This document shows, one piece after another, positions 1 through 38,535 of a DNA stretch of 64,000 bases (position 1 is its first letter; each line of letters opens with the position of its first letter). The DNA comes from a virus. The notes beneath the pieces were generated by a model. The model was not told the DNA's origin. It did no database searches and was given only the letters and a program-made list of their open reading frames with translations. The stretch is from IMG/VR virus record IMGVR_UViG_3300021963_000097, positions 1 to 64,000 of that record. One strand, given 5' to 3'. Made by a program: the position numbers and the translations under genes.

Positions 1-287
1 AACCTGGTCACCTTGTCTATATAGGGAACTCCTGAGGAAATCCCGTTCTACCCCATTCTCCCTAATAATCCCCATCCTCCATAAGAGCTCGTAATACCTA
101 TAAAGGATTAGCTAAACTTATGGGTAAAGGGGAATAAGGAATTCTAATACCAACTTCAGTATTAGAGAGTTTCATGGTCTATCTGGTATTAGATAAACTC
201 ATGTACCCCTAATTGCACCCCTATTATAGGTACTTTCTTATGGCAAGGAAAGAACTAAATTATGTTATTTTGCATTAACTAATAGGC

Positions 288-316
288 TTGCCATATATCC
301 CTATAGTTACCATAAT
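288..316 (+). promoter_or_regulatory. early sigma70-type promoter (TTGCCA-N17-CATAAT) with no ORF at +1
   Basis: Same GGCTTGCC..GTTAC-CATAAT architecture as the other early promoters; TTG-TAA follows at the expected +1. Confidence 0.75.
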
Positions 317-322
317 AAGCTA

Positions 323-412
323 TTGTAAGGGACTGGGCGCTTATAAAGATGTAACGCAATCCGTGTTACCGCAGTGGCTAGGTCATCCCGGATTAACGAG
401 GTCCTCTTATTC
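323..412 (+). ncRNA. candidate structured small RNA
   Basis: Downstream of a consensus promoter and no ORF. TAAG/GGAC 326-333 pairs with GTCC/CTTA 401-409; stem 351-357/363-369; loop AATCC(G) is complementary to CGGATT 389-394. Confidence 0.4.
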
Positions 413-510
413 TTATGATATGGTACGGATATCTAGAGATAGGTCAAGCCTATAGTTACGTAGGATGCCAGTGGTAAACTTGTTTCTTCTTAGAGGGAGC
501 ACATTTCTAG

Positions 511-562
511 ACATAGTACTTGCAGGTGATTGGGTCTGGACCGATTATATAGACTATGAAAA
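511..562 (+). repeat. promoter-cassette repeat family A, copy 1 (ACATAGTACTTGC..CCGATTATATAGACTATGAAAAT)
   Basis: Near-identical copies at about 840-902 and 1120-1166; contains -35 TTGC(A/C), -10 GATTAT/GATAAT and, in two copies, the start codon. Confidence 0.8.
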
Positions 563-855
563 TCCAACCGTTCTACCTAACCCTCGATGATCCTGAATTC
601 GTTGCCAATTATGCGCAAGAAATGATCGAGCACATCATGTGCAGTCTTCACAAGAGAGAGCCTTTCCGGTCTTATCCAGATTGTGAGTACTTGTGGGATA
701 GGCCGCGCAACTTTAGAGCAATAAGCCGGCACATCAATGACCTCAAGCAATTACTAGCACGGCTCGAGCAAATCGAAGGCCCTGTTCGGGATTTGAGCAG
801 TGCTGAACACCGGGTTCTACGTGCTGATTTCATTAAACGTAAAACCTTAACATAG
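556..855 (+). CDS. hypothetical early protein (leaderless)
   Basis: 99-aa ORF; ATG 7 nt after the -10 element. Confidence 0.7.
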   Translation: MKIQPFYLTLDDPEFVANYAQEMIEHIMCSLHKREPFRSYPDCEYLWDRPRNFRAISRHINDLKQLLARLEQIEGPVRDLSSAEHRVLRADFIKRKTLT

Positions 856-894
856 TACTTGCCAATCATTGGTTCAGTGCCGATTATATAGACT

Positions 895-1122
895 ATGAAA
901 ATAACTGAAATGGTTAACTTACTCACACAAGCTCAAGCTCGCGGTGTTACCGAGATAGAGTTTTACGATGGTGTCACCCACGAAGGCCTTCAAGACTCTT
1001 GGCACCATTATGGTTCTGCTACTACTCCCTTTGCTATTCTTTTTGAATCCGAGAAGGATTATCCGGATTACTGCAAGAACACTTATACTCTAGAAAAGGA
1101 CCTCGAGTTCACCAAACGTTAA
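895..1122 (+). CDS. hypothetical early protein (leaderless)
   Basis: 75-aa ORF; promoter TTGCCA at 859. Confidence 0.7.
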   Translation: MKITEMVNLLTQAQARGVTEIEFYDGVTHEGLQDSWHHYGSATTPFAILFESEKDYPDYCKNTYTLEKDLEFTKR

Positions 1123-1204
1123 ACCTTAACATAGTACTTGCCATTCATTGGTTCTGTACCGATAATGATCGGGTAATAAGGTAACAATCAAATCAATCAA
1201 ATAT

Positions 1205-2200
1205 ATGTCACATGGAATTACTAATCGCGACCGCCAAGAAGGCCGTCATATGGGTTGGCACAATCTAACTCAGATCAATGAGGTGCTCGATCTCAAGAAC
1301 AACTGGCTTACCAAATGGGATATCCAAGAGGTAGGTCTGAAGACGGCAGGGGATATCGAGGTGCCGTTCAAGATCCTCACGGGTACGGATGATAATGAGT
1401 TCATCGGTAAGCCGTTTGCCGGGACCTATACCCCGGTATCTAACAAAGCTTTCCTCGATATGATCGGAGAGGCGATTAGTGGAGTGAAGGGAGCCGTAGT
1501 TGAATCCGTGGGATCGGTCAATAACCGTGGTCGCGTGTTTGTCTCATTGTCAATCAAAGGGATGGAAAGCTTCAAGGTGGGTAAACGCGAGTTCAAAGAC
1601 TTCCTCAACTTCGGTAATGGTCATGATCAGACTTCAGCTCTCTGGACCAATGCTTCGAATACATGTACGGTATGTGATAATACCTTTAGTATGAATCTGC
1701 ATGGTGAGCAAGAGGTTAAGTGTAAGGTTAAGCATTCGAAGGACGTCATTGCGCGATTGGATAACATCGTGGAGATCATTGATGCTTATGCAGGTACGCA
1801 GGCTAAGTTCAAAGCTCAGTTCGAACGTCTACTCAACGAACCGATGAAGGTGGATAAAGCACGTGATCTATTCGCCGGTTGGATGATCCGTAGTACCTCG
1901 GAAGAGGGTCGCGATCTTGGACCTAAGACGTTGACCAAGGTTAACCGTCTGACGGATCTGTTTCAGGTCGGTAAGGGTAATAACGGAGCGAACCGAGCTG
2001 ATGCATTCAGTGCCGTAACGGACTATTACACCCATGAATCCACGCGCCGGTCCGGACGTAACGTTACGCGTCAGGTGTTCTCGAGTGAGTACGGACTCGG
2101 TCGGATGGCTAAGTCTGACTTCTGGAACGTAATTCGTAACGACAAGTCGGTTGACACTTATGTAGCTAACGGGAAGAAAGCTCTCGCGATGCTATCGTAA
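1205..2200 (+). CDS. DUF932-family (TIGR03299-like) phage/plasmid protein
   Basis: Motifs 'GWH', 'Y.PVSN..F', 'GS..GR.F', 'NGHD', 'VCDNT', 'KHS', 'AVTDYYTH' typical of DUF932. Confidence 0.75.
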   Translation: MSHGITNRDRQEGRHMGWHNLTQINEVLDLKNNWLTKWDIQEVGLKTAGDIEVPFKILTGTDDNEFIGKPFAGTYTPVSNKAFLDMIGEAISGVKGAVVESVGSVNNRGRVFVSLSIKGMESFKVGKREFKDFLNFGNGHDQTSALWTNASNTCTVCDNTFSMNLHGEQEVKCKVKHSKDVIARLDNIVEIIDAYAGTQAKFKAQFERLLNEPMKVDKARDLFAGWMIRSTSEEGRDLGPKTLTKVNRLTDLFQVGKGNNGANRADAFSAVTDYYTHESTRRSGRNVTRQVFSSEYGLGRMAKSDFWNVIRNDKSVDTYVANGKKALAMLS

Positions 2201-2227
2201 TGGTGGAGGTATCGATCTAGATACCCT

Positions 2228-2255
2228 AGAGAGCCTCGAGCAATTGAGGCTCTCT
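2228..2255. terminator. hairpin / probable bidirectional terminator
   Basis: AGAGAGCCTC-N8-GAGGCTCTCT between the DUF932 gene and a convergent minus-strand promoter. Confidence 0.65.
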
Positions 2256-2320
2256 TCTACCGTTACCCGGTAAACCAATCAGCGTAACCGAAGTGATTCA
2301 GCGCGGGCAGACCCATTCAT
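2228..2320 (-). ncRNA. candidate ~90-nt small RNA or 13-aa peptide (MNGSARAESLRLR, 2320-2279)
   Basis: Begins with ATG exactly 6 nt after a consensus -10 and ends at the hairpin; internal complementarity (TCTGCC/GGTAGA, AATCA/TGATT). Confidence 0.4.
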
Positions 2321-2326
2321 AAGATT

Positions 2327-2355
2327 ATTATGGGAACTTTAAGGGAGGGTTGCAA
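2327..2355 (-). promoter_or_regulatory. early promoter on minus strand (TTGCAA-N17-CATAAT)
   Basis: Reverse strand reads TTGCAA ccctcccttaaagttcc CATAAT aatctt ATG. Confidence 0.75.
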
Positions 2356-2397
2356 GCTTAAAATTTAATAAAAAACACTTAATATATTAATTAAAAC

Positions 2398-2425
2398 TTG
2401 CCAAATTAATTAAAAGGGATATATT
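2398..2425 (+). promoter_or_regulatory. early promoter TTGCCA-N16-TATATT with AT-rich UP region
   Basis: ATG 6 nt after the -10; divergent from the 2355 promoter. Confidence 0.7.
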
Positions 2426-2431
2426 TATGTT

Positions 2432-2650
2432 ATGAAAAATAAATTATTTGGATTAGTGATGGGAGAAGGAAGGATTATTATTGGAGATTTTAAGAAGGTA
2501 TTTATTGATAATAAAATTTGTGAGGAAGGAGATTATGAGAGTTTTAAAGAGGAGTGTGTTGAGAGTAAAGGGGTATGGTTGATTGATGATATGGGATTTT
2601 GTGAGGGAGAGAATGAGAGTGAGGTGATGAGTAAAATAGGTGGAGTTTAA
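2432..2650 (+). CDS. small acidic protein encoded by a cytosine-free gene
   Basis: 72-aa ORF with its own promoter; no C in 2403-2657; protein lacks A, P, T, Q, H; 16 D/E versus 9 K/R. Confidence 0.75.
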   Translation: MKNKLFGLVMGEGRIIIGDFKKVFIDNKICEEGDYESFKEECVESKGVWLIDDMGFCEGENESEVMSKIGGV

Positions 2651-2696
2651 TTTAAGGCTTGCCAAAAAAGGGAAACGTTACCATATTATTAGCACA

Positions 2697-3080
2697 ATGA
2701 TGAACAAATATCCTATATCGCAAGTCGGGAGCGTAAAGCTCTCCGATGGTTCGAATGAAATGTACGGTAACATTAACTCTTGCTGGACCTTCGGAAATGA
2801 GAAGGGGATGTCGGCTCTACTCTTTATTAGTTTGAAGGGGTTGCGTGCGCCGATCGGCAAACAGAAGTACAAATGGAAGGTAGTGGTTACGTCTAGTAGC
2901 TTAGAGCAAGTCAAACAAAACTATAAGATTGGATCCGGGCAAAGCTTCTATGCTGATCAATCTGGCCGCAATCTCGGCGATTGGGAATTGGCCGATATAG
3001 TGGAATGGAGTTTAGATGGCCTGCAACGTATCGCTAACATTACCCATAAGAAGTCTGTAATGATGGCTACCTACAAATAA
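2697..3080 (+). CDS. hypothetical early protein (start revised to ATG 2697)
   Basis: Promoter TTGCCA(2659)-N17-CATATT lies inside the longer ORF call. Confidence 0.7.
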   Translation: MMNKYPISQVGSVKLSDGSNEMYGNINSCWTFGNEKGMSALLFISLKGLRAPIGKQKYKWKVVVTSSSLEQVKQNYKIGSGQSFYADQSGRNLGDWELADIVEWSLDGLQRIANITHKKSVMMATYK

Positions 3081-3119
3081 GGCTTGCCAGTTAACAGAAA
3101 CGTTACCATTATATCAACA

Positions 3120-3356
3120 ATGAAATACGCACACGAAGTGTATACAGTCGAACAGCTGCAACAAGCGTTCGCTAGCGTTCAGAACTCTGAACATTGGAAG
3201 AACCCCATCAGTGCTACCATCAACAAAGCCGATCAGGACTTAGTTCATGAAGCAATTATTTACTTTGCAGGATGTAACCCCCAGTTCGAACCTATTATGG
3301 GTACCGAGCTATTAACCGTTAAAGCTGTCGGCTATTATGTCGCAGTAGGAGCTTAA
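3120..3356 (+). CDS. hypothetical early protein (start revised)
   Basis: The TTG at 3084 is the -35 box; CATTAT 3107-3112, ATG 3120. Confidence 0.7.
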   Translation: MKYAHEVYTVEQLQQAFASVQNSEHWKNPISATINKADQDLVHEAIIYFAGCNPQFEPIMGTELLTVKAVGYYVAVGA

Positions 3357-3362
3357 TACTTT

Positions 3363-3545
3363 ATGATCAAAATAATTGCACCCTATATGTCCGCAGATCT
3401 CTTTGAACGTAAGTTCCGGGAAGCCATTGAATGGCAGACCGAGATGTTACTCGGAGATGGCGAGTTCAAAGACGATGAATACGATGTAGCTTACGAGAAG
3501 GCAGTATTGCTCGTAGCTGAAGCAGAAGAGATTGAATTGGTTTAA
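3363..3545 (+). CDS. small acidic hypothetical protein
   Basis: 60-aa ORF filling the gap between cassettes. Confidence 0.6.
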   Translation: MIKIIAPYMSADLFERKFREAIEWQTEMLLGDGEFKDDEYDVAYEKAVLLVAEAEEIELV

Positions 3546-3584
3546 GGCTTGCCGTTTACGGTATTTGTTACCATTATACCTTAT

Positions 3585-3869
3585 ATGACAAAACAACAAG
3601 TAGCTGAAGTAGTCGTTGCTATTATGAAGGAGAAAGAAGTAAAGGAAAAGATCGGCTATTTAGCTGATTTGGTAACGCGCCATAAAGATGGTACGTATAC
3701 GGCGCGTAGAGGTTTCTACTATAAGTTCGATAAGACTGCTCTGGACTTCAAGAACGATATTGAGGCTCTAGGTATACCCGTACTAGCTTATGGTACGGAG
3801 GAAAAACCTTTTAAAGGGGGGATGGGAGTTAAGGCTAACTCGCATTGGTGGGCAACGTTTAGAGCTTAA
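3585..3869 (+). CDS. hypothetical early protein (start revised)
   Basis: TTGCCG 3549 is the -35; CATTAT 3572; ATG 3585. Confidence 0.7.
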   Translation: MTKQQVAEVVVAIMKEKEVKEKIGYLADLVTRHKDGTYTARRGFYYKFDKTALDFKNDIEALGIPVLAYGTEEKPFKGGMGVKANSHWWATFRA

Positions 3870-3910
3870 GGCTTGCCGTTTACATTAATTGTTACCATAA
3901 TATTATCATA

Positions 3911-4309
3911 ATGAATATCAATAAAACATATCAAGTAGAGTTCTCAATTGAGGACTGCAAACGGTGTCTTAATAATCATCAATACGATGCTATCCGGGTG
4001 CTCGTTGAAGAGATGCAAAAAGACGAGCGTCTTACCTCCATCCAGGACATTAGTAACTTCGTAATGGGGTTGCTCCGAGGGGAACGAGGCAGAGAGTTTG
4101 AAGATCTAGTAAAAGAGTATTCAATTAACTGGATCAGTACGCCGACGTTTAATTCAGGTTGGGGTAAGCTGGTTGAAAAATTCCCGGGTATCTTTGAGCT
4201 CGATCCTCTCATTAAGCAGTATGTTCACGATGCGTATGGGGCAACCAAACTGCAAGTCACCGTCGATGGGCTGTTAATCGATACCAAAGAGATACTCGCA
4301 AATATGTAA
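3911..4309 (+). CDS. hypothetical early protein
   Basis: 132 aa; TTGCCG(3873)-N17-CATAAT. Confidence 0.7.
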   Translation: MNINKTYQVEFSIEDCKRCLNNHQYDAIRVLVEEMQKDERLTSIQDISNFVMGLLRGERGREFEDLVKEYSINWISTPTFNSGWGKLVEKFPGIFELDPLIKQYVHDAYGATKLQVTVDGLLIDTKEILANM

Positions 4310-4350
4310 TTTAGTTCCAACAACAAAACAAAACAATAATAGAAACAAAT

Positions 4351-4635
4351 ATGAAAAATAATAACATCGTCAATGTTACGCGTATGACTAATAGGAATAC
4401 ATGGAAGGCTCAGGTGAATCGTAATAACGTCAGCCGCTCGAAAGCGTTCAGCGATAGCAAATACAAGGGTGCCGGTAAGGCGCTTGATGCTGCTCTTGCC
4501 TATGGTGCTTACTTGCAGGGTATCAGCTGGACCCGCTTCGCTGCTCCGGTCATTACCAGCTATCGTAAAAAGGGGTCTTCTTACAATCACTTCGCGGTTG
4601 CCACCAAGGCACTCGCTCGCTATACCAACGTTTAA
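4351..4635 (+). CDS. basic AP2-like DNA-binding protein
   Basis: 'WKAQV..SRSKAFSDSKYKG..KAL..ALAY' resembles the AP2/integrase-N fold; A/C-rich leader without SD. Confidence 0.5.
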   Translation: MKNNNIVNVTRMTNRNTWKAQVNRNNVSRSKAFSDSKYKGAGKALDAALAYGAYLQGISWTRFAAPVITSYRKKGSSYNHFAVATKALARYTNV

Positions 4636-4716
4636 TCGATAATAACCGTTGCAATAATTCTAGATTAATATACAATAACTTCATACCATTAAGGTATAAC
4701 TAAACAAAACCATACT

Positions 4717-4965
4717 ATGAATACTGAAAATACTACCGCTGAAAAGCGTTCCGCTACGATTGAAAAGAACCGCTCTGCTCGCATTAGTGAGCGTGGCTAT
4801 GCCTTGCCATTGGTGCTGACCTGCAAGGTTACGGGCAAGCAAGTCAAGTATACCTCGCCGTCGTATATCGATAAGGTGATTGCGCGTGCTGGCTCTCTTG
4901 AGAAGCTTCAGGCTTCCTTCACGTCGCGTGAGGGCCGTCGGTCACCAGTCGCGCAGACTCATTAA
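4717..4965 (+). CDS. small basic protein, paralog of 7301..7654
   Basis: Shared 'LTCxxTGKxVxxT...KxIA..GSLE' motif. Confidence 0.7.
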   Translation: MNTENTTAEKRSATIEKNRSARISERGYALPLVLTCKVTGKQVKYTSPSYIDKVIARAGSLEKLQASFTSREGRRSPVAQTH

Positions 4966-4986
4966 TTGTTGGTGTTTTTCATTCGC

Positions 4987-5027
4987 ATAGTGGCTCATCT
5001 GGTAACCCCGGATGGGCCATTATTTTT
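4987..5027 (+). terminator. rho-independent terminator
   Basis: ATAGTGGCTCATCTGG / CCGGATGGGCCATTAT stem followed by a T run. Confidence 0.7.
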
Positions 5028-5070
5028 GCTAAGTACCTGCCTTTACAACTAAATAACCTACATTACTGTT

Positions 5071-5253
5071 ATGAGCTACGAAAAGATTCTAAAACTAATT
5101 CGCACCGAGATTGCTGATGCAATGCTCGAGGACGGAGACCTATCACGCAAAGAAGTACTCGATGATCTAATAGAAGGGATCCGATCTGATCTAGAAGTAG
5201 ACGAAGACGAAGAGCAAGATGAGCCTGATGAATTCCTTGAAGAGATCGAATGA
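5071..5253 (+). CDS. highly acidic small protein
   Basis: 60 aa with a D/E-rich tail; TAAATA at 5050. Confidence 0.65.
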   Translation: MSYEKILKLIRTEIADAMLEDGDLSRKEVLDDLIEGIRSDLEVDEDEEQDEPDEFLEEIE

Positions 5254-5360
5254 ACTGGGACCTCATCTTTACTTGGATAGCAGGTGGTATCTTTCTAACG
5301 TGCTTAGGTCTTCTAGTTACTGTGGTCTGCTTCTGGTTAGATGGTCGTGATCAAGACTAG
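5250..5360 (+). CDS. 36-aa single-TM membrane peptide (MNWDLIFTWIAGGIFLTCLGLLVTVVCFWLDGRDQD)
   Basis: ATGA overlap with the upstream stop; one hydrophobic helix; below the ORF-track cutoff. Confidence 0.55.
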   Translation: MNWDLIFTWIAGGIFLTCLGLLVTVVCFWLDGRDQD

Positions 5361-5463
5361 TGGTACACCGGAGTATATCCCGGTTACCCTAGAGTACTCT
5401 GCAGAGTACAGTATGGACTAAGAGCTTGCCATAATAGGAAGTAGTTCTTATTCTATCTGCACC

Positions 5464-5688
5464 ATGAAGAGTACCTCAATCCTTACCCCTATCAGAGAGC
5501 AAGTACTGTTCTCTAGTGACTTCGAAGCTACTAAACAACTCGTACTCGAGACTCTAGCAGCAGCTCCTATTCAAGACAAGGACATCAAGCTAGCTCGAGT
5601 AGTGGTACAGTACCAGATATCTAATCTAGCTAGACTTCAGAAGTATGTGAGTGATATGATCCTAGCAAAGGCTGGTCTGAAGGTTTAA
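5464..5688 (+). CDS. hypothetical early protein; palindrome-tetramer-rich gene
   Basis: 74 aa; TTGCCA(5426)-N17-TATTCT. Confidence 0.7.
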   Translation: MKSTSILTPIREQVLFSSDFEATKQLVLETLAAAPIQDKDIKLARVVVQYQISNLARLQKYVSDMILAKAGLKV

Positions 5689-5726
5689 AGCTTGCCAACT
5701 AACGGAACTGTTCCCATACTACTCCT

Positions 5727-5873
5727 ATGAATAACAACAACGTTAGAGAAGAAGTAGTCGCTCGTTCGATCGAGCATCTAAAGAAGGAGCTCGATGCAAT
5801 CGATCTCGCCAAAGATCTAACCTGGGAAGAGGTCACCGCTATTGTTAATGGGTTCGGTTCGTGGATGAAGTAA
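5727..5873 (+). CDS. 48-aa leaderless early protein (MNNNNVREEVVARSIEHL...)
   Basis: TTGCCA(5692)-N17-CATACT-6nt-ATG; not in the ORF track. Confidence 0.7.
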   Translation: MNNNNVREEVVARSIEHLKKELDAIDLAKDLTWEEVTAIVNGFGSWMK

Positions 5874-5913
5874 AGCTATTGCCGCCTACTGCAAACGTTC
5901 TCATACTACTCAT

Positions 5914-6129
5914 ATGAATAACAACAACATTGATAATTCAATTGCAACTGCTGCAGCGCATCTGGAGACTATCCACGCCTACCTGAGTAATGCTTTGCAT
6001 GAGATGGAGAACCATCCTGAGGCATTTGAGCTGTGGCGTTGGCTTACTCCGCAACAGATTACCACCATTACGCAATTGGAGAGTATTGCTTTGAATGTGT
6101 TGTTAGATCATCTCGGGGCTCTGGAATAA
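5914..6129 (+). CDS. hypothetical early protein (leaderless)
   Basis: TTGCCG(5879)-N17-CATACT-6nt-ATG. Confidence 0.7.
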   Translation: MNNNNIDNSIATAAAHLETIHAYLSNALHEMENHPEAFELWRWLTPQQITTITQLESIALNVLLDHLGALE

Positions 6130-6168
6130 AAGCTTGCCAACTAACGGAACTGTTCCCATACTACTCTT

Positions 6169-6420
6169 ATGAATGTTAAATCAAAAAGTCTTACGTGGGA
6201 GTTCGATCAGATCGTCCTCAACAACTACCTTGCCAATCAGAACGCAGCCTTTGAAGCTCGTATGCGTGCAGCATCTGGTAATGCCTTCTATGTTGTATCA
6301 GCATTGACTGCATATGACCTAGCTCGTATGGGAGTGTACACCGTAGAGCAATACAAGCAATGGAGTGCTGAAAATGATGCTCTCGAAGCTGAAAAAGAGG
6401 ATAGAAAGAACAGCTACTAA
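6169..6420 (+). CDS. hypothetical early protein (leaderless)
   Basis: Promoter at 6134 essentially identical to the one at 5692. Confidence 0.7.
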   Translation: MNVKSKSLTWEFDQIVLNNYLANQNAAFEARMRAASGNAFYVVSALTAYDLARMGVYTVEQYKQWSAENDALEAEKEDRKNSY

Positions 6421-6459
6421 GAGCTTGCCGTTCTACTCTAACGTTACCATAATACTCTT

Positions 6460-6660
6460 ATGAAGAATAAAAACAAATTAACAAGTAACATGAACAACAC
6501 CTTACAACTCTTAGATGAAAACCAATTGGTTGGACTAGCAGACGGTTATGCAGTGTACCGTAACTTGTACGAGACGGTAACCGGCGAACGAGTATCCGTT
6601 CGAACCTCTAAGGTCTTCTGGAGTGAAGATCATCTTAGCTTTGAAGAGGTAGCCCTTTAA
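6460..6660 (+). CDS. hypothetical early protein (leaderless)
   Basis: TTGCCG(6425)-N17-CATAAT-6nt-ATG. Confidence 0.65.
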   Translation: MKNKNKLTSNMNNTLQLLDENQLVGLADGYAVYRNLYETVTGERVSVRTSKVFWSEDHLSFEEVAL

Positions 6661-6698
6661 GGCTTGCCAACTACCGTAACCGTTACCATACTACTCTT

Positions 6699-6944
6699 AT
6701 GAAACAATTCACCTCAGATCAATTCAACTGGAAGAATGGTATTGGTACAGCTGAACTCAGCTCGTTACTTGGTATGACCGAGAGCTTCTCTCGATTCACA
6801 ATCAAGTCCACTCGTACCAATCATACCCGAACATATGAGCTCGATACCCAATCTCCAGGATATGAGGATGGTTGGGATGGGGAGTTTAAACAGTACACCG
6901 ATAACTTGTTCGATGGTACTAAGGTAATCATTTGGAATTATTGA
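6699..6944 (+). CDS. hypothetical early protein (leaderless)
   Basis: TTGCCA(6664)-N17-CATACT-6nt-ATG. Confidence 0.7.
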   Translation: MKQFTSDQFNWKNGIGTAELSSLLGMTESFSRFTIKSTRTNHTRTYELDTQSPGYEDGWDGEFKQYTDNLFDGTKVIIWNY

Positions 6945-6980
6945 CTTGACCTTTTATCTAATTGTTACCATACTACTCCT

Positions 6981-7262
6981 ATGAATAACAAAGCAATCAT
7001 TGACACCCCACGCCATATGAACGACCTCTTGCCAATTGTAACGAAACGTATGATGGAGATGTATGGCGTGCCCTCCATCGGCGAGTGGTACGATGAGCAG
7101 TTCTTGTTTCCAGAAGATAAGGACTCACCCTTTGTAGGCGGCAATAAGTTGCTGGTAATGTCGATGCTCTCTGATGTCCAGGAGATGATCGATCGTAGTC
7201 TGATGGATGAGGCTCGTCATACGCTCAATAAGGCTAAATGGGTCCTATCTAATAAGCTTTAA
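6981..7262 (+). CDS. hypothetical early protein (leaderless)
   Basis: TTGACC(6946)-N17-CATACT-6nt-ATG. Confidence 0.7.
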   Translation: MNNKAIIDTPRHMNDLLPIVTKRMMEMYGVPSIGEWYDEQFLFPEDKDSPFVGGNKLLVMSMLSDVQEMIDRSLMDEARHTLNKAKWVLSNKL

Positions 7263-7300
7263 GGCTTGCCGTTCTACTCTAACGTTACCATAATACTCCT

Positions 7301-18237: not shown

Positions 18238-19383
18238 ATGGCTAGTTATATATCTAAATACTGCATTGATACCGGAAGCTACGTTGCCCCGGGGACTGAC
18301 GAGGTAGGCGACACGTTAAGTGGTGGTTATAACTGTACCTATGGTACGAGCGGGGTGAGATACTTGAGTGTAAGTTCTACCGCAGCAGAAAGAAGCTTGT
18401 TTAACAATTGGTGGAAAGAACAAATTGGTCAATACGGTCAACAAGTTGATTACTTTATAAATGGATATAATTTATCTGCTCATGATTATTTTTACGGAGA
18501 ACAGCCACTAGTAAGATACTCTATAGCATTCCCTATAGTAATGGCATTAACATTAAGTAATGATAATGTTGTATTAAGCAAATTCGGTCTACAAGGAGAT
18601 GCTGACTTAACTGCAATTATTCCAATTGATACTTTTTACTCGACTGTAACTGCTATGAGTGGGGTATTGTCGGCTTCTAACTACGAGCCTAAGGCAGGGG
18701 ATTTAATTAAATTAACCGAATACGGCTCGCTTCGCCCGGGTGGTAGAAATGGTAGAGTATTCGAAATAACCGAGCGTGTAGATGAAATGGGGGGAGAGAA
18801 TAATCAGCTATTCGGTCATTATGTGTGGATGATAAAAGCGAAACGCTTTGACTTTAATTATGAACTTGATGCACCTCGCGAGGCTCTTATGGATCAGGTG
18901 TATGATAATAAGTCTGATGGAGTATTAAATAATCTACCTAAGATTATAGAGACAAAAGAATACACACAATTCGTTGATAAAGATTCTACTGAGGTATTTA
19001 ACTATAAAGAAAATACCCAAGCTAACACTAGTGTATACGGGGATTATGATGATAATAATACTCTTGTAAATCTTATTGGAGTAAGTAATAGTAGTGGTAT
19101 TAATACGGGAGCATTAGGAGCTTCAGCTAGTACTTTTGTTGTTCTTGAAAGTCCAAGCAATTATAACTCCGCAGCTGCAACCTCCGCGGTTACTACAGCA
19201 AATAATAACGCTCTATATACTCTTTACACTTTACTTTCTACATACAACCCAAGCTTAAGCGCTATGGCTCCAGTAATACCCGCAAATGATTCTGTTGCAG
19301 AAAACGCGCGGGTTCCTGCACCATTTAATCTTGCAACTCTTGCATCTTTACTGTCTGCATTAGGGTATATACCCCCACCTTAA
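18238..19383 (+). CDS. neck / head-closure protein (T4 gp14-like)
   Basis: 'EQI.QYGQ.V.Y', 'YGE', 'SKFGL', 'PKAGDLI', 'FEIT', 'F.FNYE'. Confidence 0.7.
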   Translation: MASYISKYCIDTGSYVAPGTDEVGDTLSGGYNCTYGTSGVRYLSVSSTAAERSLFNNWWKEQIGQYGQQVDYFINGYNLSAHDYFYGEQPLVRYSIAFPIVMALTLSNDNVVLSKFGLQGDADLTAIIPIDTFYSTVTAMSGVLSASNYEPKAGDLIKLTEYGSLRPGGRNGRVFEITERVDEMGGENNQLFGHYVWMIKAKRFDFNYELDAPREALMDQVYDNKSDGVLNNLPKIIETKEYTQFVDKDSTEVFNYKENTQANTSVYGDYDDNNTLVNLIGVSNSSGINTGALGASASTFVVLESPSNYNSAAATSAVTTANNNALYTLYTLLSTYNPSLSAMAPVIPANDSVAENARVPAPFNLATLASLLSALGYIPPP

Positions 19384-19406
19384 CTTTAAATATCTAATAC
19401 TATTAT

Positions 19407-21476
19407 ATGTCTGTCGATTTTCCTAATTTAATTTTTCCACATGAGCTTACTCAGGTTGTACCTATATCAGCGGATTTAATTTTTCTAGAAAGAAATAATG
19501 GTGGCGGGTCATATAGTTCTTATAGTACCACACTTTCAGCATTATCAGCTGCAGGCTTTATAGGTCTTGACGGCACATCAGGATATTCAGGTTATAGCGG
19601 CATTCCTGGTTCAGCTGTAGCTTCTGGTTATTCTGGTTATAGCGGCTCATCTGGTTACAGCGGCACGTCTGGTTATAGTGGGGTCGTCGGCAGCTCAGGC
19701 TATAGTGGGGTTTCCGGTTATAGTGGCGTTGACGGCAGTTCTGGTTTTTCTGGTTATAGTGGGGTCGTCGGCAGCTCAGGCTACTCTGGAGCATCAGGTT
19801 ATAGTGGCATAGGTACCTCAGGCTACTCTGGAGCATCTGGTTATAGTGGCGTTATCGGCAGTTCTGGTTATTCTGGTTATAGCGGTACCGGCACTTCAGG
19901 CTATAGCGGCGTATCTGGTTATAGTGGAGATGGTACGTCTGGCTATAGTGGTACGTCTGGTTACAGTGGCGCGGGTGCGTCTGGTTATAGCGGTGTATCA
20001 GGCTATAGCGGTGCATCAGGCTATAGCGGTATTTCTGGTTATACTGGAGAGTCTGGCTACAGCGGTATATCAGGCTATTCTGGTATTTCTGGTTACTCAG
20101 GTTCTGGTGTGTCAGGGTATAGTGGGGCCGGAACTTCTGGTTACTCTGGTTATAGTGGTGCGTCTGGCTATTACGGTCAAGACGGTGCTTCTGGTTATTC
20201 CGGTATATCAGGCTATAGTGGTATAGGTACTTCAGGCTACTCTGGTACCTCTGGTTATAGCGGAGCAGGCGATTCAGGGTATTCAGGTTATTCCGGCGGC
20301 GGGGCCGTTTATGCTAACGATTTATTAGTATCATTAACGGGAGGTAGAACTTTTGGAAGGTATATAACTGGATCGATTATACCTGCGACGGGTAAAACAG
20401 CAGCTGAAGTTATTCAACTAGCTATAGCAGAGCCTATTGCACCTTCAGTATCTTTAAGCACGCCTGCTGCTATTACATTTAATAATACAACAATTAGTAA
20501 TGCTCTTACTTTCAGTTATATACTTAGTTCTGTTGGCGCGACTGTTACTACAGCAATATTAGAGTGGGCGCGAGCAAGTACTCCTCCGTATGGTACTGGT
20601 GGGGCGTCTACTTGGGTAACTCTTTTCTCGGCAACGTCTGCAACAAGCTTTAGTATCACTCATACTTTAACGGACCAAAACTGGGCTACAAATACTTTTT
20701 ATTATCGCTATACTGTTACAGACTCTGTAGGGGCTTCTGCGCAGGCTACAAGTCAACGCGCTCCAACCGCATATAGTAACCCTGGTGTGTCGCTTACGGT
20801 AGCTGCTATATCTGCCACAGCATCTCCTGAAACCTCTAGTAGTAGAGAAAAAGGTAATACAGCGACTACAGTTACTGGTACTATTACTCAAAATAATAAT
20901 AGTACATATGTAGCATTAAGTGCATACAAATTACAATACAATGCAGGTCCCTCTTGGGTAGATTTGGGTAACACGGTACTCATAGGCCCAGGAACGACTA
21001 GCGTGACATCTACAAGACTTGTTAATGATTCTCTTTCTGCTGCAACGTCAATTGCGTTCCGCGCCATAGTGTATGACGCGTATTACAATTCTCTTAATAG
21101 TAGTTACACTAGTGGTACGGCCGCTACTGTTTCTCTTTATAATATGATATGGTACGGCCCCGTCGCAGCTGAACCCACTACATCCGCAGATGTTAGAGCA
21201 ATGAATACTCGTCAGTTTATACAGGCCCTATCCAACCCATTTAACTTAATAACCGGTACAACCTACCAGACGTTTACGGTAGCAATGCCTGCTACCGTTA
21301 GTATCACAAATGTGATCGACTTAGATGCATTAAATGCTGATATAACTGCAAGCTATATTAATTCAACATTTAATGTAAATGATTATGCGGGTACAGCAGT
21401 ATCATATAACGTCTATACAATGTCTAACGCATCAGTTTATTCATCGTCTCATAGACACCAAGTAACTCGCGCTTAA
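19407..21476 (+). CDS. (Ser-Gly-X)n repeat structural/fibre protein
   Basis: About 240 aa of SGY/SGT repeats plus a Thr/Ser-rich beta C-terminus. Confidence 0.8.
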   Translation: MSVDFPNLIFPHELTQVVPISADLIFLERNNGGGSYSSYSTTLSALSAAGFIGLDGTSGYSGYSGIPGSAVASGYSGYSGSSGYSGTSGYSGVVGSSGYSGVSGYSGVDGSSGFSGYSGVVGSSGYSGASGYSGIGTSGYSGASGYSGVIGSSGYSGYSGTGTSGYSGVSGYSGDGTSGYSGTSGYSGAGASGYSGVSGYSGASGYSGISGYTGESGYSGISGYSGISGYSGSGVSGYSGAGTSGYSGYSGASGYYGQDGASGYSGISGYSGIGTSGYSGTSGYSGAGDSGYSGYSGGGAVYANDLLVSLTGGRTFGRYITGSIIPATGKTAAEVIQLAIAEPIAPSVSLSTPAAITFNNTTISNALTFSYILSSVGATVTTAILEWARASTPPYGTGGASTWVTLFSATSATSFSITHTLTDQNWATNTFYYRYTVTDSVGASAQATSQRAPTAYSNPGVSLTVAAISATASPETSSSREKGNTATTVTGTITQNNNSTYVALSAYKLQYNAGPSWVDLGNTVLIGPGTTSVTSTRLVNDSLSAATSIAFRAIVYDAYYNSLNSSYTSGTAATVSLYNMIWYGPVAAEPTTSADVRAMNTRQFIQALSNPFNLITGTTYQTFTVAMPATVSITNVIDLDALNADITASYINSTFNVNDYAGTAVSYNVYTMSNASVYSSSHRHQVTRA

Positions 21477-37302: not shown

Positions 37303-37911
37303 GTGTATCATACTAGTTTAATTATCCAAGAAAACTTCTATACAAACCCGTTAGAAGTAAGAGCGTTTGCTCTTGCTCAAGATTTTAGTGTAGCTGGTAA
37401 TTATCCTGGTAGTAGAACAAAGTCGTTTGCCGATGAAAGTATTTTTAATACAATACAAGATATTGTAAGCCCTCATGCTGGTAAAATTACCTGGTTTGGG
37501 GGTAATAAAGATGCAGATCATAACTACACTGGATCGTATCAGTTAACGTATGCTAAAGATCGTACTTGGATACATAACGATAGTAATACCTCTTGGGCGG
37601 GGGTACTTTATCTTACTCCAGATGCACCGGTCACCGGGGGTACCGGGCTATTTAGACATAAAAAAACTGGGTGGATTAAAGCTCCCAGAACCGCTGATAA
37701 TCTTATAGATCAAGCACTTCTGGATAAAAGTATTGCGGGTTACGAGTATCAAGATTATACTAAATGGGAATTACATGATCAAATTGGTAATAAATTTAAC
37801 CGTTTAGTAATGTACCGTGGGGATTATTTTCATGCCTCTTTAGATTATTTCGGCGACTCAAAAGAAAATGGAAGGCTTTTTCAAACATTCTTTTTTAGTA
37901 CCGAGTATTGA
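37303..37911 (+). CDS. 2OG-Fe(II) oxygenase (DUF6445-like)
   Basis: 'NFY.NP..VR', 'YPG.R', 'WIHND', 'WAGVLYLTP', 'GT', 'FNRLV.Y..YFH', 'RLFQ.FF'. Confidence 0.75.
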   Translation: MYHTSLIIQENFYTNPLEVRAFALAQDFSVAGNYPGSRTKSFADESIFNTIQDIVSPHAGKITWFGGNKDADHNYTGSYQLTYAKDRTWIHNDSNTSWAGVLYLTPDAPVTGGTGLFRHKKTGWIKAPRTADNLIDQALLDKSIAGYEYQDYTKWELHDQIGNKFNRLVMYRGDYFHASLDYFGDSKENGRLFQTFFFSTEY

Positions 37912-37941
37912 TTTTTTTATAATATATAATAAATTATTATT

Positions 37942-38535
37942 ATGCACAATCAATATCAGATCTTTACAAGCGCTTTTAACGATCAATTCTGCGACCATAT
38001 TATTAGTGTAGCAAAGCTGTATCGCGAGCAAGGCGGGGTAGTAGGTTCAATTGATGCTACTACCGGGGAGTCGAGCTCCGCCCTTAATCAAGAAATACGT
38101 AATAGTACTATTCGCTGGATTGATATTTATGCACATAGAGAAATTAATACAATTCTTAATGACTATGTAAATGCAGTTAATAGCTCGCTGTTTGGTTTTG
38201 ATATAAGTTTTGGGTTTAATTCTTTACAGTATACGGAATACAATGGAGATGGCCCGGCGCCTCAGTTTTATGATTGGCATATGGACTGTTTGTTCGATAA
38301 CGCAGTATTAGACCGTAAGTTGTCTGCCGTAGTACAATTAAGTAGTCCAGATGATTATGAAGGCGGGCTTTTCGAAATGGAAGGTTGCGCGCGTCCTCCA
38401 TTTAATGTAGAGCCGTTTTTACCGCGTGGGTCGTTATTAATATTTCCTTCTTACCTTAAGCACCGGGTCTTACCCGTAACTAAAGGGCTACGCAAGAGCT
38501 TGGTAACTTGGTATAACGGACCAAGATTTAGGTAA
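37942..38535 (+). CDS. 2OG-Fe(II) oxygenase, prolyl-4-hydroxylase/PKHD-like
   Basis: 'IRNS', 'Y.WHMD', 'RKLS..VQLS...YEGG', 'FPSYL.HRV.PVT.G.RKSLV.W..GP'. Confidence 0.85.
   Translation: MHNQYQIFTSAFNDQFCDHIISVAKLYREQGGVVGSIDATTGESSSALNQEIRNSTIRWIDIYAHREINTILNDYVNAVNSSLFGFDISFGFNSLQYTEYNGDGPAPQFYDWHMDCLFDNAVLDRKLSAVVQLSSPDDYEGGLFEMEGCARPPFNVEPFLPRGSLLIFPSYLKHRVLPVTKGLRKSLVTWYNGPRFR

What the first reader, a model, noticed from the sequence alone, without database searches (positions are those of the whole stretch)
2403..2657. A complete gene with no cytosine on the coding strand
Seen: 255 consecutive + strand nt contain only A, G and T. They span the promoter spacer, the -10, the whole 72-codon ORF 2432-2650 and the gap to the next promoter. 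At about 18-20% C the chance is below 1e-20. The protein is not low-complexity, yet it lacks A, P, T, Q and H (all need C) and uses AGT for Ser, AGG for Arg and TTA/TTG for Leu. It has its own early leaderless promoter, which drops the usual C-containing GTTAC-CATAAT, and 2357-2399 upstream is G-free. Inference: strong selection for expression under host attack. At RNA level, a C-less mRNA is immune to CTP depletion, to viperin-made ddhCTP chain termination and to C-containing RNase sites such as MazF ACA. At DNA level, a C-free strand cannot hold any palindromic restriction site with a G:C pair. The small acidic product (net about -7) fits an anti-defence or DNA-mimic inhibitor that may be encoded so as to escape the system it blocks.
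Basis: partly seen in the sequence, partly recalled or inferred. Interest (0 to 1): 0.95.

Follow-up and report, generated by a model that had tools for sequence, protein, structure and literature searches.

The report
Phage gene written without cytosine
A small early gene of an uncultured T4-like phage, with its promoter core and spacers, contains no C on its coding strand; selection keeps it so in its relatives, the reason is unknown, and I found no published description.

Summary
Window 2403-2657 has no C on the + strand (255 nt; next longest C-free run 64 nt; chance about 4e-19 for the window). The 72-codon ORF 2432-2650 is a real gene: dN/dS is 0.2-0.5 and the AlphaFold2 model has pLDDT 89.5. 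It matches no known family or fold.

The C-free run coincides with a shuffled cassette. Homology to relatives spans 2408-2656, between two resident promoter -35 boxes. Fourteen neighbouring early cassettes have normal C.

In four related metagenome contigs the homolog lies in multi-gene C-free blocks (905 to 1,250 nt without a C; one 1,221-nt contig has none). Sixty-one variable nucleotide columns never show C. This family and a second island family each have distant homologs with a normal amino-acid alphabet, so existing proteins were recoded.

Selection therefore acts on DNA or RNA along the direction of transcription. The agent is not identified. I favour an attack on C in the message (0.35). 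A G-free template in guanine-hypermodifying phages is next (0.25): a relative carries a DpdA3-like gene.

This scan noted the same phenomenon before on other DNA. Five literature searches for it found no description.

The parts
1205..2200 (+). Upstream neighbour, a DUF932-family gene with normal C content. Its relatives in L005 and L006 are followed by other genes and have no C-free run.
   Evidence: (PF06067, E 5e-20)
2357..2399 (+). G-free tract upstream (43 nt). It is real but not exceptional in this window.
   Evidence: another 43-nt G-free run at 19366-19408
2398..2403 (+). -35 box TTGCCA of the resident early-promoter type. Its last C (2402) is the last C before the run.
2403..2657 (+). 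C-free run of 255 nt, which is the shuffled cassette. Homology to C-free relatives spans 2408-2656.
2404..2431 (+). Cassette's own C-free promoter core: 16-nt spacer with AAAAGGGA, -10-like TATATT (2420-2425), then 6 nt to the ATG and no Shine-Dalgarno sequence (leaderless or nearly so). The start site is inferred, not mapped.
2432..2650 (+). 72-codon ORF plus stop. It encodes a folded alpha/beta protein of unknown function built from 15 amino acids.
2658..2696 (+). Next resident early promoter (CTTGCC ... GTTACCATATTAT). It holds the first C after the run (2658). No terminator lies between the two.
2697..3080 (+). Downstream early gene with normal C content.

Best explanation
Window 2403-2657 is a self-contained early-gene cassette. 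It has its own -10 region and a leaderless 72-codon ORF. It was dropped between two resident early promoters of an uncultured T4-like phage by promoter-mediated shuffling.

It belongs to a guild of small early genes that circulate among related aquatic phages. Their sense strand, including intergenic spacers and internal promoters, is kept free of C by selection on the nucleic acid, not on the protein. The product is a real folded protein, and its family was recoded into a 15-letter amino-acid alphabet. Those points are shown.

Inferred: the agent acts on the message. I think it most likely cuts or marks RNA at C. It could be a host defence or toxin RNase, or the phage's own host-shutoff RNase. 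Only C-free messages would then stay intact and translatable during a critical early period. A physical side effect, which is shown, is an almost unstructured mRNA.

CTP shortage or ddhCTP chain termination are less likely forms of the same idea. What the protein does is unknown; counter-defence is a guess.
For: Cassette: blastn homology to L007-L010 spans 2408-2656. Fifteen of the 16 early promoters listed (1 more than the 14 normal neighbours counted elsewhere, because the C-free gene's own promoter is included) share TTGCC/TTGAC-type -35 boxes. Only this cassette lacks GTTACC-CATAAT.

Shuffling: L009's normal genes match window 6168-7246 at 73-91% nt, but there they lie next to a 4-gene C-free block.

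Real gene: dN/dS is 0.20-0.51 in 9 of 10 pairs. The model has pLDDT 89.5.

Selection on nucleotides: 20 of 22 homologs have no A, P, T, Q or H (2 such residues of 1,640). Sixty-one variable nucleotide columns show no C. If a fifth of about 65 changes went to C, the chance of seeing none is 1e-6.

Island size: C-free runs of 1,221, 905, 547+462 and 1,250+495 nt occur in L007-L010. Their 418 nt of intergenic spacer hold 8 C, all in one terminator with its -35 box and one pre-(-10) element.

Recoding: P0023 (41% identity, E 2.4e-7) has 9 such residues in 73. In a second island family, 41 rows have 0-3 and 16 rows have 7-15, split by one branch with support 98/90.

Subset-specific cost: all other ORFs of the 73-kb record have at least 11% C.

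Message rather than nucleotide supply: the first C lies 7 nt after the stop codon here, and 11-23 nt after it in L009 and L010.

Unstructured RNA: -0.072 kcal/mol per nt against -0.254 +/- 0.036 for 21 tiles of other early genes.
Against: No C-directed RNase or any other agent is identified, and the host is unknown.

Sense DNA strand, template strand and message carry the same information. Sequence alone therefore cannot separate an RNA-level cause from a DNA-level cause.

The promoter spacer and -10 (2404-2431), which are probably not transcribed, are also C-free. An RNA-level cause does not require that, unless the module evolved as an internal, read-through promoter of an island.

In relative G001 the C-free stretch sits behind a promoter and leader module that holds C.

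A relative (G001) and the cultured phage immuto carry DpdA3-type guanine replacement, which favours the template rival.

In this lineage alone the evidence for ongoing selection is weak: 10 window-specific changes, none to C, P 0.02-0.12.

Expression of the ORF is not shown.
Confidence: 0.35

Rival explanations
1. G-free template. The phage lineage replaces every G of its DNA with a 7-deazaguanine derivative (DpdA3 type). Genes that must be read fastest from the incoming modified DNA avoid modified bases on the strand that RNA polymerase reads.
For: Relative G001 (TerL 78% identical) has its own 466-nt C-free run. It also has a 268-aa protein 50.7% identical to the DNA guanine transglycosylase of Flavobacterium phage immuto, next to a PurN-like formyltransferase, as in immuto.

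Passages of PMC10516641 say DpdA3 completely modifies CP220, phiST and immuto, where the modified base is fdPreQ1.

Immuto gp143 has 5 C in 357 nt, against 8-15% in most neighbours. Earlier notes of this scan report the same pairing in other genomes; these are leads that I did not check.
Against: Fourteen neighbouring early cassettes with the same promoter type have normal C. In L009 and L010 normal genes directly follow the C-free block. So polymerase reads templates that contain G in these phages.

CP220, reported fully modified in PMC10516641, has no C-free run above chance (78 nt against about 76 expected).

No TGT, QueC, QueD, FolE or DpdA3-like gene is found in this 73-kb record. The record is only 32% complete, so this is inconclusive.

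A search found no paper on transcription of 7-deazaguanine templates.
Confidence: 0.25
2. Extreme Rho avoidance or an unstructured message. A purine-rich, C-free transcript cannot be loaded by the terminator Rho and has almost no secondary structure. That would suit leaderless, weakly coupled early messages.
For: The sense strand is 68% purine with G 33% and C 0. The predicted structure is far weaker than in other early genes.

PMC13323073 (abstract, section 7 and passages) shows that excess C over G across more than 150 nt drives Rho termination. It also shows that purine bias protects genes and names phages as affected foreign DNA.
Against: Rho targets need long stretches with excess C. A message with 31% G would tolerate a few C's, yet every C is gone, at the price of five amino acids.

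Other early genes in the same array have local C excess (GC skew down to -0.22) and a normal alphabet.

The host and its Rho are unknown.
Confidence: 0.12
3. Relic in this phage. The constraint acts in donor phages with large islands. Here the single cassette is a recent import that merely keeps its donor's composition.
For: This is the only C-free ORF of the 73-kb record. Homology to island copies ends at the cassette borders. It is 89-92% identical in nucleotides to L007-L009. Ten window-specific changes without a C is only weak evidence of ongoing selection.
Against: This does not explain the phenomenon; it only moves it to the donor. P 0.02-0.12 still leans toward continued exclusion. Run X4 holds variants of the gene with 8 further differences, none to C.
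Confidence: 0.15
4. Mutational bias: cytosine deamination of the exposed non-template strand of a heavily transcribed region drove all C to T.
For: The pattern is strand-specific and follows transcription units.
Against: T is not inflated (33% against 30% in the window), whereas G rises from 22% to 31%.

Neighbouring cassettes with the same promoter type keep 19% C.

Proteins are under purifying selection yet have lost five amino acids.

The variable columns are mostly A/G (31 of 61).
Confidence: 0.03
5. Assembly or base-conversion artefact.
For: None found.
Against: Four other metagenome contigs and 22 protein clusters carry the same C-free gene. Contigs of an independent run agree. G at 31% means the opposite strand holds normal C. 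The run is confined to one cassette.
Confidence: 0.01

Closest known systems
PeSL (promoter-early stem-loop) mobile regulatory cassettes of T4-type phages (PMC2839356; abstract read. PMC4122927; search listing only)
   Same: Both have small ORFan early genes in a variable region of a T4-like phage. Each gene has a strong sigma-70-like promoter, and they are shuffled by recombination between promoter modules. Here the gene order differs between close relatives. In L010 a terminator plus promoter unit bounds a block.
   Different: PeSL cassettes are not described as lacking a base. Here no stem-loop terminator flanks the cassette, and the genes are leaderless.
Rho-avoiding purine bias of bacterial genes (PMC13323073; abstract, section 7 and passages)
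   Same: Both show a strand-specific, transcription-oriented excess of purines and of G over C on the sense strand, imposed on codon choice.
   Different: The known bias is graded and genome-wide. Here exclusion is absolute, removes five amino acids, and is confined to a subset of cassettes beside normal genes.
[quoted passage not shown]
   Same: A relative of this phage (G001) carries a DpdA3-like gene and a formyltransferase and has its own C-free cassette. Immuto has one nearly C-free small gene.
   Different: That system is a DNA modification, not a coding rule. No link to gene composition is published as far as my searches show. It was not found in this partial record. CP220 shows no C-free genes.
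Restriction-site (palindrome) avoidance in phage genomes (own knowledge; also named in earlier scan notes)
   Same: Both involve selection on DNA words rather than on protein.
   Different: Restriction-site avoidance removes particular palindromes from both strands. Here one base is removed from one strand, over a whole transcription unit.
Synthetic G-less/C-less cassettes and ACA-less messages for MazF-based single-protein production (own knowledge, recalled)
   Same: In both, a message or template lacks one base or motif, so that it alone is made or survives under a base-specific block.
   Different: Those are engineered tools. This is natural, multi-gene, and evolutionarily maintained.

Membership tests
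PeSL-type mobile early cassettes of T4-type phages | Host genome is a T4-type myovirus | tested here: met
   TerL, sheath and baseplate-hub families are present. TerL matches T4-superfamily terminases at up to 37% identity.
PeSL-type mobile early cassettes of T4-type phages | Repeated strong sigma-70-like early promoter modules flank small non-essential ORFs | tested here: met
   Sixteen aligned promoter regions in 287-7300. TTGCCA-16-TATATT matches 10 of 12 positions. Promoter activity was not measured.
PeSL-type mobile early cassettes of T4-type phages | Stem-loop terminator is part of the module | tested here: not met
   No terminator-like site in 2000-3300. One is present at the block border in relative L010.
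PeSL-type mobile early cassettes of T4-type phages | Gene content and order vary between close relatives by exchange at the modules | tested here: met
   L005 and L006 have other genes after the DUF932 gene. L009 has the homolog next to the counterpart of window 6168. Homology ends at the cassette borders.
Rho-avoiding purine-biased genes | Sense strand is purine-rich with G above C over more than 150 nt | tested here: met
   68% purine, G 33%, C 0.
Rho-avoiding purine-biased genes | Host uses Rho with runaway transcription, and the bias is graded and genome-wide | not testable with these tools
   The host is unknown. Within this phage the bias is not general.
DpdA3 complete guanine-replacement phages | Genome encodes a DpdA3 transglycosylase and a preQ pathway | tested here: inconclusive
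   No match in the 73-kb record to PF01702, PF06508, PF01242, PF01227 or to G001's DpdA3-like protein. The record is 32% complete. Relative G001 has the gene.
DpdA3 complete guanine-replacement phages | Virion DNA lacks dG | not testable with these tools
   This needs nucleoside mass spectrometry of phage DNA.
Restriction-site avoidance | Loss of specific palindromic words on both strands | tested here: not met
   One base is missing on one strand only. The opposite strand has 31% C over the same 255 nt.
Ocr/Arn-type DNA-mimic anti-restriction proteins | Fold or sequence related to known mimics, with a strongly acidic surface | tested here: inconclusive
   Net charge is -7. There is no Pfam or PHROG match. 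Foldseek gives no match at E<=0.001 (best E 0.28) and the best VIA Z is 3.9.
Peptide deformylase | PDF domain with EGCLS and HEXXH motifs | tested here: not met
   The only similarity is a 32-residue local match to bacterial def genes (L011, L012). There is no Pfam match at E<=1. The protein is 72 aa with no HEXXH.

The most novel reading that the evidence does not exclude
Some phages keep a private three-letter (A, G, U) channel of gene expression. A guild of mobile early genes is written without C, so their messages alone escape a C-directed attack on RNA or its synthesis. The attack could come from host defence or from the phage's own host shutoff. This would let first-wave, probably counter-defence, proteins be made while every other message in the cell is hit. 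Existing protein families were recoded into 15 amino acids to join the channel.
Probability: 0.3. Interest if true: 0.95.

Novelty: categorically new. Interest (0 to 1): 0.85.

Why it matters
Natural genes that use only three of the four bases, and proteins built from 15 amino acids, are not in the literature I could search. They show that selection on a nucleic acid can override protein composition completely.

Whatever the agent is, it must discriminate at the level of single C's (or single template G's). That points to an unrecognised step in the first minutes of phage infection. The step could be a base-specific RNA attack, a cost of reading hypermodified DNA, or a new use of Rho avoidance.

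The cassettes are short, portable and easy to recode. A cultured phage, Flavobacterium phage immuto, has a nearly C-free gene, so the question can be tested directly. The recoded families are also natural experiments in reduced amino-acid alphabets that still fold (pLDDT 89.5).

Tried and rejected
Function of the protein. Pfam and PHROGs gave nothing for the 72-aa protein or for 10 other island proteins (only sub-threshold Pfam rows at E 0.035-0.089). Foldseek against PDB gave no match at E<=0.001. VIA-align wide gave a best Z of 3.9. The ESM Atlas gave only unnamed clusters at 0.90. I draw no function from these.

Relatives in phage collections. There was no match in 'phages' by megablast, tblastn or blastn. 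There was none in IMG/VR with the protein, with alignment A1, with the second island protein or with alignment A4. There was none with a 23-letter spacer motif. Alignment A1 found nothing in 5 related viral records or in immuto and CP220.

Peptide deformylase. L011 and L012 are bacterial def genes with a 32-residue local similarity. I rejected this as chance.

P0024 and P0025 are long repetitive proteins, which I treat as chance hits. I did not view P0026.

RNA evidence. In the two RNA-library runs laid (X19, X20) no contig covers ORF 2432-2650. Their contigs cover 2648-2900, and X20 has one 33-nt piece at 2411-2443. This says nothing about expression. The shares of the 20 runs that I did not lay are not used for habitat.

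Guanine-modification genes in this record: none found. This is uninformative at 32% completeness.

The tree of the second family may be pulled by composition; the tool flags 6 rows. Its root is unknown, so the direction of recoding is not shown. I dropped 5 of 62 rows (P0060, P0068, P0069, P0070, P0079) as partial or carrying unrelated tails.

In one search one of the 20 listed stretches (L008 1151-1288) was read in the wrong frame by my slip. The zero count of A, P, T, Q and H holds in any frame of C-free DNA.

Supplements of PMC10516641, which list the DpdA3 and DpdN phages, were not seen and may bear on the association.

Literature. Five searches for a description of C-free genes found none: four listed only irrelevant papers and one listed nothing. 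One search on transcription of 7-deazaguanine templates found nothing relevant.

Full report
OBSERVATION. The + strand of window 2403-2657 has no C (A 93, T 84, G 78). The next longest C-free run in the 64-kb window is 64 nt, and the window has 18.9% C. The chance is 5.7e-24 per start and 3.6e-19 for the window. The run begins just after the last C of a -35 box (TTGCCA, 2398-2403) and ends just before the C of the next CTTGCC at 2658. It holds a 16-nt spacer, a -10-like TATATT (2420-2425; 10 of 12 consensus matches), the ORF 2432-2650 and a 7-nt gap. No terminator-like site lies in 2000-3300.

By the window's own codon usage, 73 C-free codons have a chance of 1e-18 to 1e-23. The upstream G-free tract (43 nt) ties with another in the window and is not remarkable. 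In the whole 73-kb record this is the only such ORF; the next lowest has 11% C.

CONTEXT. The window is the first 64 kb of a 73,140-bp viral record rated 32% complete. It has a T4-type terminase, sheath, baseplate hub and collagen-like fibres. Bases 287-7300 hold an array of small genes. Each is preceded by CTTGCC-N13-GTTACCATAAT and then, 6-9 nt later, by ATG without a Shine-Dalgarno sequence. The C-free gene keeps only the -35 box of that module. Its spacer and -10 (AATTAATTAAAAGGGATATATT) are of another, C-free type.

IT IS A REAL GENE. A search of 5.8 billion proteins gave 22 homologs at 70-90% identity (alignment A1). Four metagenome contigs carry the DNA (L007-L010; 6 of 132 candidate stretches were confirmed, and the other 2 are bacterial deformylase genes). 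dN/dS among the five copies is 0.20-0.51 in 9 of 10 pairs; the tenth pair had no synonymous change. In C-free composition a 72-codon open frame has a chance of 1.3e-4. AlphaFold2 on 16 sequences gives pLDDT 89.5 and a beta-beta-alpha-alpha-beta-beta-beta-alpha fold. No family or fold match was found.

THE EXCLUSION OF C IS SELECTED AND IS LARGER ELSEWHERE. In relatives the homolog sits in multi-gene C-free blocks.
- L007 has no C in its whole 1,221 nt.
- L008 has none in 384-1288.
- L009 has none in 1-547 and 552-1013.
- L010 has none in 1-1250 and 1283-1777.

These blocks hold up to seven consecutive small ORFs, mostly starting MKNK or MKIK. Their 1,445 listed residues include no A, P, T, Q or H (one stretch was misframed by my slip). 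Their 418 nt of spacer hold 8 C. Six lie in an intrinsic terminator plus -35 box (L010 1236-1311) and two lie just upstream of a -10 (L009 525-565). The other spacers are C-free promoter-like modules (TTGTAA-N16-TATTAT, then about 6 nt to ATG).

Among the five copies of the window gene, 61 nucleotide columns vary and none shows C. With a fifth of about 65 changes expected to go to C, the chance is 1e-6. Twenty of 22 protein homologs lack all five C-dependent residues (2 such residues of 1,640). Contigs of an independent run (X4) cover 2431-2640 with 8 differences, all among A, G and T. Contigs of run X1 are identical over 2406-2900, but X1 may be the source sample.

THE RUN IS A SHUFFLED CASSETTE. 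Homology to the island copies spans 2408-2656 (L010) or 2431-2652 (L007-L009), which is the C-free run and nothing more. L009's normal genes after its block match window 6168-6421, 6655-6704 and 6968-7246 at 73-91% nt. So a fairly close relative has the gene in another place and in C-free company. Two relatives of the upstream DUF932 gene (L005, L006; 76-81% aa) have other genes downstream and no C-free run over 48 nt. This is the behaviour described for PeSL cassettes of T4-type phages (PMC2839356, abstract), except that no stem-loop lies here.

RECODING OF EXISTING FAMILIES. An exhaustive HMMER search of 1.84 billion representatives found one distant homolog, P0023 (E 2.4e-7; 41% identity over 66 residues). 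It has a normal alphabet, with 9 of 73 residues being A, P, T, Q or H.

A second island family (the 128-aa protein of L010) gave 62 homologs. Thirty-seven have none of the five residues. Those at 42-53% identity have 7-15, around the same conserved core. On a tree of 57 rows (5 dropped), 41 C-free-type and 16 normal rows are split by one branch with support 98/90. The root is unknown and composition may pull the tree. The proteins therefore work in either alphabet, and the rule is imposed on the nucleic acid.

WHAT IT IS NOT. It is not simple C-to-T decay. T is 33% against 30% in the window, while G rises from 22% to 31%. Neighbours with the same promoter type keep their C. It is not an artefact, because it appears in independent assemblies and the opposite strand holds normal C. 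It is not restriction-site avoidance in the usual sense, because the exclusion is one-stranded and covers only 255 bp of the genome.

MECHANISM. Because every case follows the coding direction, the target is one of three things: the message, the template strand (G-free), or the displaced sense strand. Because normal-C early genes lie beside the C-free ones under like promoters, the cost of a C is specific to this guild, to a time window, or to a condition.

(a) Message immunity. An activity that cuts or marks RNA at C would leave only these messages whole. I prefer this form to CTP shortage or ddhCTP. The first C lies 7 nt after the stop codon here, and 11, 15, 19 and 23 nt after it in L009 and L010. 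A polymerase halted there would, by my inference from the known polymerase footprint (recalled), still cover or crowd the stop codon. No agent is identified.

(b) G-free template. G001, whose terminase is 78% identical, has its own unrelated 466-nt C-free stretch between two copies of a 110-nt promoter module. It also encodes a protein 50.7% identical to the DpdA of Flavobacterium phage immuto, beside a PurN-like formyltransferase. Passages of PMC10516641 state that DpdA3 gives complete guanine replacement in immuto (fdPreQ1), phiST and CP220. Immuto has one gene, gp143, with 5 C in 357 nt. CP220 has no C-free run above chance. The strong form of this idea fails, because G-containing templates beside the islands must be read. 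A weak form, a per-G delay that matters only for the most urgent genes, survives. This record shows none of the modification genes, but it is a third of a genome.

(c) Rho avoidance or lack of structure. The message is 68% purine and nearly unstructured (-0.072 against -0.254 kcal/mol per nt). The published Rho-avoidance bias is graded (PMC13323073) and does not predict removal of the last C's.

(d) In this phage the state may be partly inherited. Ten window-specific changes without a C give only P 0.02-0.12.

PRIOR WORK. Searches of the library for cytosine-free, C-less or cytosine-depleted phage genes found nothing relevant. This scan's own earlier notes describe the same kind of C-free early cassettes in many other viral records. 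Several of them name PeSL, DpdA3 and Rho avoidance as nearest knowns. I took the DpdA3 and Rho leads from there and checked them as described above. Those notes are not independent evidence.

VERDICT. The specific agents and the anti-defence role are untested. What this window adds:
- a single C-free cassette embedded among normal ones, with borders that equal the recombination borders;
- two families with both alphabets;
- the short distance from stop codon to first C.

Noticed in passing
window 287-7300: An array of at least 15 small early genes. Each has CTTGCC-N13-GTTACCATAAT followed 6-9 nt later by ATG, with no Shine-Dalgarno sequence, so the messages are apparently leaderless.
   Followed up: partly
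L059 17629-17738 and 18266-18373 (G001 37629-38373): Two copies of a 110-nt promoter and leader module flank a 466-nt C-free stretch with two small ORFs unrelated to the window gene. The module itself contains C and long G-free tracts.
   Followed up: partly
L077 477-3134 (G001 about 120.3-123.0 kb): A DpdA3-like transglycosylase (268 aa) lies between a PurN-like formyltransferase and a 349-aa piece of a DNA polymerase. This is the same DpdA and formyltransferase pairing as in Flavobacterium phage immuto.
   Followed up: partly
NC_055915.1 68330-68686 (L095 1831-2187): Cultured Flavobacterium phage immuto has one small hypothetical gene (gp143) with only 5 C in 357 nt, inside an array of small genes with 8-15% C.
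   Followed up: partly
NC_027997.1 83687-83797: Campylobacter phage CP220 has a 111-nt G-free run on the + strand, against about 63 nt expected as the longest. I did not look at it further.
   Followed up: no
L011 2423-2983; L012 233-790: Bacterial peptide deformylase genes share a 32-residue local similarity (GDFKKVFI...EEGD...F.E.C) with the C-free protein. I judged it chance.
   Followed up: partly
L008 304-369: A 66-nt G-free, C-rich tract lies directly upstream of the start of a C-free block. This mirrors the shorter G-free tract at window 2357-2399.
   Followed up: no
window 2646-2677 (runs X19, X20, X4): Contigs, some from RNA libraries, join the promoter at 2658 and the downstream gene to a different C-free sequence. 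Other phages therefore have another C-free gene in this slot.
   Followed up: no
L007-L010, island ORFs: Nearly all island genes begin ATGAAAAATAAA or ATGAAAATTAAA (MKNK/MKIK). This suggests a shared 5' module or a requirement of leaderless initiation.
   Followed up: no
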